Assembly (NCBI GenBank): GCA_963514005.1
Contig: OY740790.1
Coordinates: 4,960,001-5,024,000, forward strand
Source of the DNA: Raja brachyura
Taxonomy: Eukaryota
DNA: 64,000 bases
Direction: 5' to 3'
Position numbers: made by a program
Part shown: positions 42,001 through 60,000 of the stretch, piece after piece
Numbering within the stretch: the stretch's first letter is position 1
How the letters are laid out: every line of letters starts with the position of its first letter

Positions 42001-45000
42001 CTCTTCTCCCCTCTCCCATCAGACAAAAAGTATAGAAGTGTGAAAACGCACACCTCCAGATTCAGGGACAGTTTCTTCCCAGCTGTTATCAAGCAACTGA
42101 ACCACCCCCTCACCAACCAGAGCGCAGTCCTGAGCAATCACTGGAGACCCTCGGACTACGTTTAATCGGACATTACCTTGCACAAAATATTATTCCCTTC
42201 TTCATGTATCTGTATACTGTGGAGGGCTTGATTGTAATTATATAGTCTTTCTGGTGACTGGTTAGCACGCAACAAAAAACATTTTCACTGTACCTCGGTC
42301 TACGTGACAATAAACCAAACCAAACAACCCTCGGCCCACACAATGGGCATTGCATCCCCCACCCTACACCATTACTCCTTCCACCATCGACACTTCACGC
42401 TGCCTCAGGAAAGCAGCCAACATCATCAAGGAACCCACATCCCAGTCATTGTCTCTACTCCCCTCTCCAGATGATACAAGAAGCTTGAAATCACGTAGCA
42501 GCAGGTTCAAGAACAGATTTACTTTAAGCACCAACTGGCAGATGTTTAATTGTAACATTGGAATAGAAGAGTTACCAATGATGAGTTGTCTCTTGTATTC
42601 AACATCATCCATGCACACCCACTGAGGACAGAGACTCCTCAAACAACTATCCCCCTTGTTAGACACAGATGTCATGTGTGGCTCAGTGGTGAGCAATGTC
42701 TCCTCATGAAAGCTGCTGTCTTTGGGATGAGGCTTTAAGGAGGTGCTTCTCAGGTAGATGTCAGCAAAGCCACGACATGACCACGACTGTTCTGCTCAGA
42801 GTCCTGAGCTAATATTTATCCTGAAACCAAACAGCTAAACACAGGTGGGCTGTGGGAAGTGAGGGGAAAGAGGGAGAAAGCAAGGACTACCTGACGCAGG
42901 AGATGTGGCCAGATTTGGTTTGCCGTGTGGGAGCTTGCACCAGGTACATTGTCACAGCTGGGCTAAGAAAGACCATGGTCCAATCAGTTCACCTTGTGTC
43001 ACCCTGACGGTCGCATGGCAGAGTGATAATGGAGTTAATGACCAACAACCACAATCAATCTCTGTCTTCAACTGGTCCAGGCGTGGGTGTCAGAACACCC
43101 AATTGTGGAAGGTTTTGGACACATTGATCCAACAAAACCTCTTTCTCCCAGAATGTGCTTCTCCTAGAACGTGCACACCTCACATCCCAGCTACCCATGT
43201 ACTGCCACCCAAAACACACCAGTCACAGACACGCACACAAAACATTTTTCACATCATATTTATTGAACTTGTATTGGTACATTGACACATACATAGATTT
43301 AATACCTCGTGTGATCCCATACAGGGTTAATATCTGTTCAAGCATGACAAAAAAAGTTCTGTAAATGTATCCAGAAGCTCAGACATTTGTGGTGAATCAT
43401 GGCTGTCACTTAAGTTGTAGCTCGTGTGGAATTATGTTTTTAATGATTTACAAAGGTTCACATTTCGACGATGTATTAGGGAACTGACCCATCATCCTCT
43501 GGGTCAGTTAATAAATCCAGAAATGAACAAAACAAGTGTTTGAGAAATGAATCATGTTACACACAAGATTTAAAGCTATCAGCCAGAACAAGTGAGACAT
43601 TGACCAGGGTGGGTTTGCTGTGAGATTTATTGATGCTTCTGAATAGGCTGGTTGTGATGGACCCGTGTCCCACAACACAGGAGAAGGTGGTGCCACTGTT
43701 CCACTCCTCTGGAGAAACCTTCAACTGACTGGTCATGGTGTTCCACCCATTCCTGGTGTCCTTGGTCACGGGCTGGTTCATGATCCCTGTCTTCAGAAGG
43801 GTGTCGTTGGCCATCCAGGCCACATAGATGTCTGCAGGAGAGAATCTGGTGACCAGGCACGTCAAGGTGGCCGTCTCATCCGTCTCCACCTCATCCAATG
43901 AAGGGGGGAGGAGGTAGACTTGAGGACGACTCTCAACTCCATCTGGGAACAGAGAGAACCTGAGTTAGACTGAATCTGTCCGTAATTCTGTACTTACCCA
44001 ATACATTCCAATCTTATACTGACATTAACATTGTTTACATCCTGGGGGACCTCAGTTCACCTGAAACTAAAGGCTTTTCCTTTCTGCTCATTGTAGGGAT
44101 GTATGGAATAGAAATCATGCTTCTGGTGCATTTTACAGGGCGACATGGTGGCGCAGCGGTAGAATTGCTGCCTACAATGCTAGAGACATGGGTTTGATCC
44201 CGACTATGGGTAGTGCCTGTATGGAGTTTGTACGTGACCGCGTGGGTTTTCTCCGGGTGCTCAGGTTTCCTCCCACACTCCAAAAACATACATGTTCTCT
44301 GTATGGCGGGACTGTCATATGCTGAGAGCGACTGGGCTTGTATACTCTTGAATATAGAAGGATGAGAGGGAATCTGATCGAAACATAAGATCATTAAGGG
44401 TTTGGACACGTTAGAGGCAGGAAACATGTTCCAGATGTTCAGGGAGTCCAGAACCAGGGGCCACAGTTTAAGAATAAGGGGTTAGCCATGTTGAACAGAG
44501 ATAAGGAAACACTTTTTCACACAGAGAGTTGTGAGTCTGTGGAATTCTCTGCCTCAGAGGGCGGCGGAGACTGATTCTCTGGACACTTTCAACAGAGAGC
44601 TAGATAGGGCTCTTAAAGATAGCAAAGTCAGGGGATATGGGGAGAAGCAGGATCGGGGTACTGATTGGGGATGATCAGCCACAATCACATTGAATGGCAG
44701 TGCTGGCTTGAAAGGCCGAATGGCCTACTGCACCTATTGCCTATTGTTTGTAGGCTAATTGTCTTGGTTTAATTGTAAATTGTTCTTGGTATGTGCTGGG
44801 TAGTGTTAGTGTGCGGGGATTGCTAGTCGGCCCGGACTTGATGGGCCGAAGGGCGCTGTATCTCTAAACTAAACTGAACTATAGCTTCCAGTGAGTTTAA
44901 ATTGGGTAGTTAATCAACAGGAACCACTGAATGCTGAGACTCTACAAAAAGTGGAACTCAGTCCTTGTCGTGGTGACTTGGGATTTTAATGATGTGGTTA

Positions 45001-57000: not shown

Positions 57001-60000
57001 CTGACATATGCTGAGAGAATGGAGCGGCTGGGCTTGTATACCCTGGAGTTTAGAAGGATGAGAGGCGATTTCATTGAAACATATAAGAATATTAAGGGTT
57101 TGGACACGCGAGAGGCAAGAAACATGTTCCTGATGCTGGGGGAGTCCAGAACCAGGGGCCACCGTTTAAGAATAAGGGGCATGTCATTTAGAACAGAGGT
57201 GAGGAAACACCTTTTTCTAACAGTTGTGAGTCTGTGGAATTCTCTGCCTCAGAGGGTGGTGGAGGCCGGTTCTCTGGATACTTTCAAGAGAGAGTTGGAG
57301 CTCTTAAAGATAGCTGAGTCAGGGGATATAGGGAGAAGGCAGGAACGAGGTACTGATTGGGGATGATCAACCATGATCATATTGAATGGCGGTGTTGGCT
57401 TGAAGGCCTTCTTCTGCACCTATTGTCCATACAGAACATTCAGGACACAGTGGAAAAAGATAGATTTGGAGAAACTAACACAAAGAAGACAGTGAGAAGG
57501 GAAGAGAGATCTTCTCCAGATATCGAATGGGACCTGTGGTTTATTCACTGTCCCATTTTTCTTACCACTGCACACAAAGGCAACTAGAGGAGTGAGAGTA
57601 AACACACTGGTGAGCTTCCTCTCTACATGTCCTGTAGAATGAGTTAGAATTACTGATGGAAAGCATTGGCTTAAATTGCAAAAAGCCAAATCTGAACATA
57701 ATACATCGCTCCACAGGACTGATCTCAGGGACAGGAATTTGGTGGAAATGTCAGTAAGATTGTTTAATGGTGTAAATAAATTAACAGACATGACTCACCC
57801 TCTTGATATCTCATGTTGATCCTGTCGCTGAAGCCGGAAGGCGCGTGGGTCACTTCACAAGTATATTCCTGTTTGTTGATCCATTCCTCCACACGCAACG
57901 GCAGGTAAGCAACTGTGTCAAATCCACCTTTAGTTCTCGGAGTGGACGGGAGAACGACGACGCCCGCTTGATTAACTCCAGCTTTTTTCCAGGAAACTGT
58001 AATATTGTCAGGAGAGAATCCGGATATCATGCAGCCCAGGACAGCAGTTGTTTGATTGTGGAGAACCTCCGGAGATGGAACAAGGGGGATGAGCTGTGGA
58101 GCTGTAACATATTTAATATCTGTTATTACATGATTCCTTCAGCCACAGTGTAGGATTCCACTCTCCCAGCACCTGGGACAAGTGCCCCAGTACCAGCCCT
58201 CCCCACAATGCTGGTGATATGCCAGTGATGTGTTTATACGGTGGGTCCCACAGTGAGGGGCTGGTCAGAGCTGTGATTGGGAGGCTGGGTTAGACCACAG
58301 GCCTCCCCAGCAGTGTGGGCCACTCTGCAGTGGTAAGAGTGGAGGTGGGTAAGTGGCGTACAGACCATCCGTGATCTCAGTGTGAGCTGGAGCAGACACA
58401 GGAACAGATGACACAACTGTTTCTACTGGCAGGAGGTTTGGGAATCACAACTTTAAGTTGGCTTCACCTCTACTGTTGTAACTCGTTTTCATCTAGCTCA
58501 CAGCTCACAATGGCCTGTCTCCTTTATCACCATTACTTTTTTTCATATCTTTCAACTCTATATAACTGTCTATATCTCTCTTTTCCCTTTCCCGACTCAG
58601 TCTGAAGAAGGGTCTCATCCCAAAACGTCACCAACTCCTTTTCTCCAGCGATGCTGTCTGACCCGCTGATTTACTCCAGCAGTCTATCTTCGCTTTAAAC
58701 CAACATCTGCAGTTCCTATCGACACAACTTTAAGTTTAATGGGAAAGGAGGTCAAATGGTTGAGAAACTTAGTTTGTTATGACAGCAATTATTTGATCAG
58801 AACTGGAAGGCAGTGGTTAAAAGTGAGAATGGAAGCAGATTCATGTAATTTCCACAAGGAGATTGGATTTCACTTGGTGAGGGGTCGGCTGCAGGGTTGA
58901 GGTGAAAGTGCAGAAAGAGTGAGGAAGGTTTATATCTCCACACTGTGCACAGGCACAATAGGTGTGGCTCTGTGCACAGCAGCTGATCTGCAGGGAGGTG
59001 TTTGGAGTGGTAGAGAGCTGCAGGGATTAAACAAAGCAGTGGATAGAATGGAGGCAGATCAAGACGAGATGCTTCCTCCCTGAACCCCACCCCCCACCAT
59101 TATCTCCTTCCACATAAACTCTCACTGTTTTTTTCCTTGAGCAGCAGCACTCTGGCTCATAGGAGGAGAATGAATGAGCAAAATAAGTAATTCACTTCCT
59201 CCTACATTGTCCGACAAAGGCTTCCACTTCAGATCTATCATTAGCTTTAAATGGACAACAAAATCTCACACTAACCTTGAGGCTTGTGGAACGTCGTTAA
59301 CACCATGTTGTCCGGCTTGTATCCTGCCTTGCAGTAGTAGACGTTATTCCTGTTCCAATCTGCCACAGGGACTCGCAGCAAGCTGCTCATTGTGTACTTG
59401 TTGTTTTGTCCCAACACTGGTGGGTACTTTGTGATTCCAGTGGTGATGTCCCCACTGCTGGTGGACCATGTCTGACTGATGATCTGAGGCTGGTAGTCCT
59501 TGACCAGACAGAGGATGCTGATCTCTTGGCCAGATTCTGTGTTGCAGGAAGAGGTGATGTGGACTGAAGGCAAGGCCTCAACCTCTGAAATGTAAATAAA
59601 GTAACAGTTGGTTCTGTAGTAAATCGATTATTACCAGCGCATGCAACAGGTTCATGCTGATTGCTGAGTAAATGCAGGTGATTCAGGCTGAGAGAAGGCC
59701 AGGCAAGGCAGAGAAATGGTTCCTTTCCCAATGCCTTTCACACCCTGCATGACCAAGCAGTGAAATGCTGATCTCACACTGGTGAAGCAACTTCTGCCAA
59801 CCAGAGGGACAAACCGGCCTGTGCTGTGGGTGATGAAGCACACGGTACAGTGCCAGATGGACCATATCCACAACCACCGGGCCAAATGGTGCTGGATCTG
59901 GCCTGTTGTGGATCTTCCTCAACGCTGGGCCCCGGGGAGTGTTGTACAACTAAGGGATCTTGGAGTACAAGTACACAGATCCCAGGAAGCATTGTCAGGT

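What the first reader, a model, noticed from the sequence alone, without database searches (positions are those of the whole stretch)
43557..59584. Secreted IgW potentially expanded from 6 to 10 constant domains, alongside a 2-domain short form
Seen: two additional intact CH3/CH4-like pairs (A1-B2) lie between CH4 and CH5, all in phase 1. The long secreted path can therefore be CH1-2-3-4-A-B-A-B-5-6-tail, and any pair can be skipped in frame. Knowledge: canonical long IgW has 6 C domains, and domain number is plastic in the IgW/IgD lineage. Inference: one gene could give secreted forms with 2, 6, 8 or 10 C domains.
Basis: partly seen in the sequence, partly recalled or inferred. Interest (0 to 1): 0.65.

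Follow-up and report, generated by a model that had tools for sequence, protein, structure and literature searches.

The report
Skate IgW gene with eighteen constant-domain exons
This is a skate antibody heavy-chain gene (IgW, the relative of IgD) in which a two-domain exon pair has been copied six times, two copies inside the secreted part and four between the secreted end and the membrane anchor, so it extends a known habit of this antibody class and is not a new kind of thing.

Summary
On the minus strand, two intact CH3/CH4-like exon pairs (A1-B1, A2-B2) lie between CH4 and CH5. All have AG/GT splice sites and are phase 1-1, with lengths of 303 and 318 nt. A 10-domain secreted chain is therefore structurally possible. 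The cysteine-rich tail exon of the 2-domain short form is also present (56352-56225).

Four more intact A-B pairs (41481-34376) lie downstream of the CH6 secretory stop and upstream of a clear TM1 exon (29543-29404). A candidate TM2 lies at 25356-25345. The gene thus has 18 C-domain exons.

CH6 has no usable internal donor. Every membrane-form model recovered from other elasmobranchs joins TM1 to a CH4/B-like (or CH2) domain, never to CH6. The four downstream pairs can therefore only serve membrane IgW.

A/B exons diverge 2-3% with no indels, against 5-11% with indels in the adjacent introns, so they look constrained.

No transcript evidence for this gene was available. Reviews already report 6-8 C exons and 8-C secreted IgW in nurse shark, and the same layout (repeats between the secreted exons and TM) in coelacanth IgW. 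NCBI gene models in sawfish, manta and sharks show comparable multiplication.

Verdict: real, and larger than described. It is a new member of a known kind, of moderate interest.

The parts
59276..59584 (-). CH1 exon (309 nt, phase 1-1); V, D and J lie outside the window
   Evidence: C1-set E 4e-14. No V or J found in 59585-64000.
57799..58101 (-). CH2 exon (303 nt)
   Evidence: 90-91% identical to skate IgX short-form proteins P0026-P0028.
56225..56352 (-). Short-form secretory tail exon: 41 codons with six Cys, then the stop; AATAAA (56234-56229) overlaps the last codons
   Evidence: 78% identical to the tail of little skate IgX short cDNA protein P0027. Acceptor AG at 56354-56353, phase 1.
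53561..53863 (-). CH3 exon (303 nt)
52700..53017 (-). CH4 exon (318 nt)
50736..51038 (-). A1 exon (CH3-like, A type)
49989..50306 (-). B1 exon (CH4-like); acceptor TAG
48673..48975 (-). A2 exon
47936..48253 (-). B2 exon
46749..47069 (-). CH5 exon (321 nt)
43557..43942 (-). CH6 exon with the long-form secretory tail and stop; terminal exon with no internal donor scoring 7 of 9 or better
   Evidence: The tail matches all long secreted models.
43259..43264 (-). AATAAA, 293 nt after the CH6 stop (candidate poly(A) signal of the long secreted form)
41179..41481 (-). A3 exon (first pair downstream of the secretory stop)
40434..40751 (-). B3 exon; acceptor TAG
39140..39442 (-). A4 exon
38398..38715 (-). 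B4 exon; acceptor TAG
37085..37387 (-). A5 exon
36382..36699 (-). B5 exon
35088..35390 (-). A6 exon
34376..34693 (-). B6 exon
29404..29543 (-). TM1 exon (acidic spacer plus transmembrane segment; enters in phase 1, leaves in phase 0)
   Evidence: 93% identical to Pristis 'igW transmembrane form'-like protein P0013.
25345..25356 (-). Candidate TM2 (three codons, VQQ, plus stop) behind a pyrimidine-rich CAG acceptor
   Evidence: the only regex match in 29403-13500. The same C-terminus is seen in shark TM models. The DNA just downstream matches the end of Narcine model P0010. Inferred, not proven.
26429..29294 (-). LINE-type retrotransposon remnant inside the TM1-TM2 intron (not part of the coding gene)
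   Evidence: Exo_endo_phos, RVT_1

Best explanation
The locus is one IgW (skate IgX/IgW, IgD-lineage) heavy-chain constant gene. It spans at least 59584-25345 on the minus strand, and its V-D-J part lies beyond the window.

Exon order: CH1, CH2, short-form tail exon, CH3, CH4, A1, B1, A2, B2, CH5, CH6 with the long secretory tail, A3, B3, A4, B4, A5, B5, A6, B6, TM1, TM2.

The repeat. A-B is a 2.06-kb cassette holding a CH3-type exon, a 0.4-kb intron, a CH4-type exon and a 1-kb intron with a transposon fragment. It has been tandemly amplified to six copies.

Products. Because every C exon is phase 1-1, the product depends on the poly(A) site and on which cassettes are spliced in.
(a) Short secreted form: CH1-CH2-Cys-rich tail.
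(b) Long secreted forms: 6, 8 or 10 C domains ending in the CH5-CH6 tail.
(c) Membrane forms: these bypass CH5 and CH6 and run CH1-CH2-(pairs)n-TM1-TM2. Seven pairs are available (CH3-CH4 plus six A-B), giving 2 to 16 C domains. The four downstream pairs are reachable only in this class.

Shown: the exon map, phases, splice sites, conservation of the copies, and homology of the tail and TM exons. Inferred: which exons are actually included in mature transcripts.
For: Exon map and intact frames. 12 of 12 A/B frames are open. 18 of 18 C exons have an AG acceptor and 17 of 17 non-terminal C exons have a GT donor.

Repeat units. They are 89-95% identical over their whole length, introns included.

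Constraint. A and B exons show 2.0% and 3.2% mean pairwise mismatch with 0 indels. Introns and flanks show 5.4-10.6% mismatch, and the three intron stretches carry 2-4 gap events per pair. Pooled pN/pS is 0.53 (A) and 0.46 (B).

TM exons. TM1 was found by homology, E 6.5e-18, 93% identity to a protein named igW transmembrane form-like. Its acceptor is phase 1 and fits the terminal G of every C exon.

CH6. It ends in a stop and has no internal donor scoring 7 of 9 or better, while known donors in the gene score 6-8.

Membrane models elsewhere. In 11 of 11 C-domain-bearing TM models from other elasmobranchs, TM1 follows CH2 or a CH4/B-like domain, with 0, 1, 3, 4, at least 5, or 6 pairs. 10 of 11 contain no CH5/CH6.

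Sawfish parallel. Model P0001 has two A-type pairs between CH6 and TM, the same order as here, from an independent assembly.

Secreted models. Models ending in the CH6 tail carry 1 pair (4 models), 2 pairs (3), 3 pairs (2) or 4 pairs (1), out of 10.

Short tail. The short-form tail exon matches cloned skate IgX short forms.
Against: No transcript, EST or peptide from this gene was available, so inclusion of any A/B exon is inferred.

The comparison proteins are mostly automatic NCBI gene models. Their exon content may be computational. P0001 visibly reads through the secretory tail.

The one transcript-like relative (P0011) is a plain 6-C form.

pN/pS near 0.5 rests on few substitutions (2-10 per pair) and is not strong evidence on its own. 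Lower exon divergence could partly reflect gene conversion.

Three of six B acceptors are TAG, not CAG.

TM2 rests on a pattern match.

Copy number in a 2-kb tandem array depends on the quality of the assembly.
Confidence: 0.62

Rival explanations
1. First reader's reading. The expansion is a feature of secreted IgW only. Two extra pairs lengthen the serum antibody from 6 to 8 or 10 domains, and nothing else in the gene is unusual.
For: A1-B2 lie inside the secreted transcription unit and are splice-competent and in frame. 10-C secreted models exist in sawfish and cloudy catshark. 8-C secreted IgW is reported for nurse shark (review passage).
Against: Four of the six pairs lie after the secretory stop and before TM1. 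They are as well conserved as the two upstream pairs. The A-type first domain is the TM-proximal one in sawfish and manta models, and the last pair in an electric-ray model.
Confidence: 0.15
2. The cassettes are silent duplicates. Splicing always skips them, and the gene makes only the classical 2-C and 6-C secreted and 2-C/4-C membrane forms. The copies look intact only because they are young or are kept alike by gene conversion.
For: The copies are young, at 2-3% exon divergence. pN/pS of about 0.5 is only mildly below 1. The transcript-like relative P0011 has 6 C domains. Published skate long IgX is a 6-C form (Anderson 1999, seen only as a citation).
Against: There are 0 indels and 0 stops in 12 exons (3.7 kb). 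The adjoining introns carry 2-4 indel events per pair and 2-5 times the substitutions. All 24 splice sites are kept. The A-type domain forms a batoid-wide clade, with 95 of 100 NJ bootstraps. It has therefore been retained since before skates, sawfish, mantas and electric rays split.
Confidence: 0.15
3. The downstream array (A3-B6) is not part of this gene. It is the remnant of a second, truncated IgW cluster, or it is an assembly artefact of a tandem repeat.
For: Tandem 2-kb repeats at 90-95% identity are hard to assemble. The leading 235 nt of both arrays are 95.7% identical, which shows copying between the two positions.
Against: No N run lies between 23653 and 64000. The copies are all different from one another. 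No V, CH1, CH2 or CH3-type exon precedes A3. The only TM exons in the window lie beyond the array, so any membrane transcript of this gene must cross it. The sawfish model has the same order. Coelacanth IgW1 is described with the same layout.
Confidence: 0.08

Closest known systems
Nurse shark IgW genes (Zhang, Du Pasquier and Hsu 2013, J Immunol; paper not held; known here only through review passages in PMC5192425, PMC4279169, PMC6795676)
   Same: Cluster-type IgW with 6-8 C exons. Secreted 2-, 4-, 6- and 8-C forms and membrane 2- and 4-C forms are made by alternative RNA processing. The short form has a Cys-rich tail. Membrane forms lack C5-C6.
   Different: This gene has 18 C exons, not 6-8. 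Four extra pairs lie downstream of the secretory terminal exon. I could not see the primary paper, so I do not know its exact exon maps.
Coelacanth IgW1 locus (as summarised in PMC5192425, passage read)
   Same: [quoted passage not shown] This is the same secreted-block / repeat-array / TM order as here.
   Different: The coelacanth repeat unit has three exons (Cw3-Cw4-Cw5) and the skate unit has two. The coelacanth locus is a translocon-type locus. The skate gene also has two cassette copies inside the secreted block.
Teleost and sturgeon IgD with repeated C-delta cassettes (PMC5192425, PMC6795676, passages)
   Same: In-frame tandem exon cassettes. Transcripts with widely varying domain number (3-19 CH in sturgeon membrane IgD). 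Same IgD/IgW lineage.
   Different: Those chains start with a C-mu1 exon and are mainly membrane forms. The repeat units differ (delta2-delta3 or delta2-delta3-delta4).
Skate IgX short and IgX long (little skate and clearnose skate cDNAs; P0027 AAA49546.1, P0028 AAA75596.1; Anderson 1999 seen as citation only)
   Same: CH1, CH2 and the short tail are 78-91% identical to these cloned short forms. CH1-CH6 match 6-C long models at 78-98%.
   Different: The published skate forms have 2 or 6 C domains. A/B cassettes are not part of them, as far as the passages I read say.
NCBI automatic gene models in other elasmobranchs (Pristis pectinata P0001/P0002/P0004, Mobula birostris P0003/P0017, Chiloscyllium punctatum P0005/P0018-P0023, Scyliorhinus torazame P0007/P0008, Leucoraja erinacea P0009, Rhinoraja longicauda P0006)
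   Same: Multiplied CH3/CH4-type pairs (2 to 6). TM1 is joined to a CH4-like domain. The sawfish has A-type pairs after CH6.
   Different: These are unnamed or mis-named predictions ('titin-like', 'immunoglobulin epsilon heavy chain-like'), not curated descriptions. The order of A-type and CH3-type pairs differs between species and clusters.
UrIg2 of sharks (PMC12227049, passages read)
   Same: Two adjacent C exons were duplicated three times and homogenised within species, giving near-identical alternating domains. B1 matches its solved structure 9dmx.
   Different: UrIg2 is a non-rearranging gene of another family. It has no secreted/membrane alternative built around the repeats.

Membership tests
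Elasmobranch IgW (IgX/IgW, IgD lineage) heavy-chain constant gene | One C1-set Ig domain per exon, with all C exons in phase 1 | tested here: met
   Pfam C1-set for 8 of 8 exons scanned. Boundaries and phases established for 18 of 18 exons.
Elasmobranch IgW (IgX/IgW, IgD lineage) heavy-chain constant gene | Sequence orthology to cloned or named IgW/IgX chains | tested here: met
   CH2 is 90-91% identical to little skate and clearnose skate Ig heavy chain cDNA proteins P0027 and P0028. TM1 is 93% identical to an 'igW transmembrane form'-like protein. A1's best solved relatives are shark IgNAR C domains, 4q9b_A at E 5.7e-20.
Elasmobranch IgW (IgX/IgW, IgD lineage) heavy-chain constant gene | Separate Cys-rich secretory tail for a 2-C short form | tested here: met
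   Exon 56352-56225, with six Cys, matches the tails of P0026-P0030.
Elasmobranch IgW (IgX/IgW, IgD lineage) heavy-chain constant gene | Long secretory tail on the last C exon, plus downstream TM exons | tested here: met
   The CH6 tail is near-identical to all long models. TM1 is found. TM2 is only a candidate.
Elasmobranch IgW (IgX/IgW, IgD lineage) heavy-chain constant gene | Own V, D and J segments upstream (cluster organisation) | tested here: inconclusive
   No V or J lies within the 4.4 kb upstream that the window holds. The 5' part lies outside the window.
IgD/IgW genes with tandemly repeated C-exon cassettes | Tandem repeat units that include exons and introns | tested here: met
   Six units of about 2.06 kb, 89-95% identical over their whole length.
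IgD/IgW genes with tandemly repeated C-exon cassettes | Cassettes are in frame and carry intact splice sites | tested here: met
   303 + 318 nt, phase 1-1, AG/GT at 24 of 24 sites.
IgD/IgW genes with tandemly repeated C-exon cassettes | Repeated cassettes are present in mature transcripts | not testable with these tools
   No transcript collection for this animal was open.

The most novel reading that the evidence does not exclude
In batoids the A-type pair may be a membrane-form module. It would be an Fc-like two-domain unit that arose in the batoid stem and sits between the secretory exon and TM1. It would give the IgW B-cell receptor a constant region not shared with the serum antibody.

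In this skate it has been amplified to four copies there, and was then copied back into the CH4-CH5 intron. The receptor could then carry up to 16 C domains, and the secreted chain would acquire 'receptor-type' domains secondarily.
Probability: 0.3. Interest if true: 0.6.

Novelty: new member of a known kind. Interest (0 to 1): 0.4.

Why it matters
IgW/IgD is the antibody class whose function is least understood, and variable length is its most constant trait.

This gene holds the short, long and membrane options side by side, with cassettes on both sides of the secretory stop. That makes a clean natural test case. It can show whether domain number is regulated differently for the B-cell receptor and for the secreted antibody, and whether the repeats are used at all.

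It also shows that automatic annotation already contains many-domain IgW models, mis-named 'titin-like' or 'epsilon heavy chain-like'. The literature I could search has not described these.

Tried and rejected
V and J. I searched the 4.4 kb upstream of CH1 by tblastn with three V regions and by motif, and found nothing.

Internal donor in CH6 (the IgM-style route to TM). No site scored 7 of 9 or better.

The A-B intron hairpin as a selected RNA structure. It folds very strongly (z -19.8). However, the six copies give a covariation penalty, only 2 of 161 pairs are compensatory, and two copies carry deletions. I rejected it as a decaying palindromic insert.

Rfam at gathering thresholds gave 0 matches in the window.

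A B/CH4-type tree was built to confirm the old A/CH3 split. It did not: skate B and skate CH4 are sisters.

The primary nurse shark paper (PMC3839419) is not held.

Four literature searches found no description of more than 8 C exons in an elasmobranch IgW.

The model was searched exon by exon. No structure prediction was run.

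
Full report
1. What is there

The window has three N runs, all below 23.7 kb. None touches the gene.

Six-frame ORF lists and tblastn of the window's own Ig-like ORFs against the window show 18 immunoglobulin C-domain exons. All lie on the minus strand, between 59584 and 34376.

Pfam assigns C1-set to 8 of 8 exons scanned (CH1-CH6, A1, B1; E 3e-8 to 4e-21). The other ten exons are near-copies of A1/B1 and were not scanned separately.

Exon ends were read off the sequence, guided by the domain junctions of related proteins:

| Exon | Coordinates |
|---|---|
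| CH1 | 59584-59276 |
| CH2 | 58101-57799 |
| CH3 | 53863-53561 |
| CH4 | 53017-52700 |
| A1 | 51038-50736 |
| B1 | 50306-49989 |
| A2 | 48975-48673 |
| B2 | 48253-47936 |
| CH5 | 47069-46749 |
| CH6 plus tail | 43942-43557 |
| A3 | 41481-41179 |
| B3 | 40751-40434 |
| A4 | 39442-39140 |
| B4 | 38715-38398 |
| A5 | 37387-37085 |
| B5 | 36699-36382 |
| A6 | 35390-35088 |
| B6 | 34693-34376 |

- All 18 exons have an AG acceptor, and all 17 non-terminal exons have a GT donor.
- All are phase 1-1.
- A exons are 303 nt and B exons are 318 nt.
- A acceptors are CAG in 6 of 6 copies. B acceptors are CAG in 3 of 6 and TAG in 3 of 6.

It covers only two of the six extra pairs.

2. The other ends of the gene

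Short form. Tails of cloned skate IgX short forms (returned by the CH2 exon search) map to 56371-56228. The sequence shows an exon at 56352-56225 with a phase-1 acceptor, 41 codons with six cysteines, a stop, and an AATAAA overlapping the last codons.

Long secreted form. CH6 carries the tail found in every long model. It ends in TAA at 43559-43557, with an AATAAA 293 nt further on.

Membrane form.
- The C-termini of two long models from the first search map at 84-90% identity to 29550-29401.
- The exon is 29543-29404. Its acceptor is phase 1, so the terminal G of any C exon completes an Ala codon.
- A search with this exon alone returned 13 proteins, among them 'igW transmembrane form ...-like' of the sawfish at 93% identity.
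- A pattern built from the three-residue ends of those proteins has one match in 29403-13500. It lies at 25356-25345 (VQQ, then stop) behind a pyrimidine-rich CAG. I treat this as a candidate TM2.
- A LINE remnant (endonuclease and RT domains) fills much of the TM1-TM2 intron.

No V or J is present in the 4.4 kb upstream of CH1. The 5' end of the gene is outside the window.

3. The repeat

- One unit runs from the A acceptor to the next A acceptor and is 2063 nt.
- The six units are 89-95% identical over their whole length, introns included. U2 and U6 are cut short at their 3' ends.
- Mean pairwise mismatch is 2.0% in A exons and 3.2% in B exons, with no indel.
- The A-B intron shows 10.6% mismatch, with 2.1 gap events per pair.
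- The B-A intron shows 5.7%, with 4.3 gap events per pair.
- The 300 nt after B show 7.6%, with 3.9 gap events per pair.
- The 120 nt before A show 5.4%, with no gap events (all).
- Pooled pN/pS is 0.53 for A and 0.46 for B, based on few changes.
- All 12 frames are open and all keep the two cysteines and the tryptophan of the fold.

I read this as constraint on all six pairs, the four downstream ones included. Gene conversion may add to the similarity.

History of the two arrays.
- The two arrays share 235 nt of leading flank at 95.7% identity.
- A 183-nt stretch occurs on both sides of the upstream array: 51830-52012 and 47193-47375, 95.6% identical.
- This suggests that A1-B2 were inserted into an older CH4-CH5 intron. 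That is an inference.

4. How it most likely works

- CH6 has a stop and no internal donor scoring 7 of 9 or better. Real donors in the gene score 6-8. A transcript that takes CH5-CH6 therefore ends there.
- A membrane transcript must splice from a CH4/B-type donor (or from CH2) past CH5-CH6.
- Every relative agrees with this. Of the 13 proteins that match TM1, 2 are TM-only fragments. In the 11 that carry C domains, TM1 follows CH2 (1 model) or a CH4/B-like domain (10 models).
- Their pair counts are 0, 1, 1, 3, 3, 3, 4, 4, at least 5, 6 and 6.
- Ten of the 11 have no CH5/CH6. The eleventh (sawfish P0001) reads through the secretory tail into transposon-like residues, which looks like a modelling artefact. 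It still places two A-B pairs between CH6 and TM1.

The four downstream pairs are therefore available to membrane IgW only, and the two upstream pairs to both classes.

Of the 10 models that end in the CH6 tail, 4 have one pair, 3 have two, 2 have three and 1 has four. Longer secreted chains are thus predicted elsewhere as well.

All of this is structure and comparison. I have no transcript of this gene.

The spliced model was searched exon by exon.

5. Age of the A type

- An NJ tree of 51 CH3/A-type domains puts window A1-A6 in one batoid clade. The clade also holds the Rhinoraja A domain, the sawfish A-like domains, the last pair of a manta TM model and the last pair of an electric-ray model. 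It has 95 of 100 bootstraps.
- Other supports: window A1-6 96, skate A 100, skate CH3 100. The batoid CH3-type clade has only 57.
- By bit score, the A-type pair is the TM-proximal one in sawfish P0001 and manta P0003, and the last pair in Narcine P0010. The 6-C secreted models of manta and Narcine use the CH3-type pair. Manta P0017 is not discriminated.

Against this, the tree of the second domain does not show the old split. Skate B and skate CH4 are sisters there (no bootstrap was run).

The idea of a receptor-specific module is therefore a lead, not a result.

6. Comparison with what is known

From review passages:
- Nurse shark IgW clusters have 6-8 C exons.
- Secreted 2-, 4-, 6- and 8-C forms and membrane 2- and 4-C forms are known.
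- Coelacanth IgW1 has the secreted exons followed by four tandem exon triplets and then TM exons.
- Sturgeon IgD transcripts carry 3-19 CH domains.

The primary nurse shark paper is not held. Four full-text searches found no description of an elasmobranch IgW with more than 8 C exons. Supplements were closed and may hold locus maps.

Solved relatives fit the IgW/IgNAR kinship. A1 matches shark IgNAR C domains best (4q9b_A, E 5.7e-20). B1 aligns to the last constant domain of IgG and IgM chains and to UrIg2. Each pair is thus an Fc-like two-domain module.

7. Verdict

- The feature is real and larger than reported.
- The mechanism (cassette exons plus three alternative 3' ends) is the standard one for this class.
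- The count (18 C exons) and the split of cassettes around the secretory stop are new for a skate, as far as I could search.
- It is a new member of a known kind, with interest 0.4.

The window also holds retrovirus-like and LINE-like stretches, which I only described (see the list of things noticed).

Noticed in passing
window 388-13065: Gammaretrovirus-like endogenous retroviral material in at least three pieces. Two are direct partial copies on the plus strand (about 0.4-5.2 kb and 8.0-9.7 kb), separated by an N run. One is on the minus strand (about 10.0-13.1 kb). ORFs as they stand hit RNase_H, Integrase_H2C2, MLVIN_C, rve and TLV_coat. pol and env are each spread over several ORFs, so both are broken. 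The material lies downstream of the IgW gene and is not part of it.
   Followed up: partly
window 50350-50688 and the same position in each A-B intron; also 53910-54269 upstream of CH3: A palindromic element of about 340 nt fills each A-B intron (MFE -244 kcal/mol, z -19.8). It would bring the A donor and the B acceptor close together. The six copies show no compensatory pattern, and two carry deletions. It therefore looks like a decaying foldback insert, not a selected structure. The CH3-CH4 intron has none.
   Followed up: yes
window 38397-38296 and 34375-34274 (minus strand, just after the B4 and B6 donors): If the B donor is not used, the frame runs on for 23 codons (B1, B2, B3, B5) or 33 codons (B4, B6). 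The two long versions end in Cys-rich ...CCCV / ...CCSV. A poly(A) hexamer lies about 170 nt after the stop of B4 and B6. This could be a read-through secretory end for forms without CH5-CH6, or chance.
   Followed up: no
window 57798-57763 (minus strand): Read-through of the CH2 donor gives 11 more codons, a stop, and an ATTAAA overlapping the stop. This is a possible second way to end a 2-domain form, beside the dedicated tail exon.
   Followed up: no
window 51830-52012 and 47193-47375; 51039-51273 and 41482-41716: A 183-nt duplication flanks the upstream A-B array, and 235 nt of flank are shared ahead of A1 and A3. These are traces of how the cassette was copied between the two positions.
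   Followed up: partly
window 26429-29294 (-), 51272-51822, 45547-46098, 56644-57190, 61831-62380, 30470-30903, and one fragment in each B-A intron (e.g. 49234-49653 +): There are many fragments of non-LTR retrotransposons in the introns. The largest (endonuclease and RT domains) sits in the TM1-TM2 intron. The fragment inside the repeat unit hits Pfam PF09004 and was amplified along with the unit.
   Followed up: partly
proteins P0002, P0006, P0009 (other species): Automatic names of many-domain IgW models are misleading ('titin-like', 'immunoglobulin epsilon heavy chain-like', 'mu heavy chain-like'). Name-based searches will therefore miss them.
   Followed up: no
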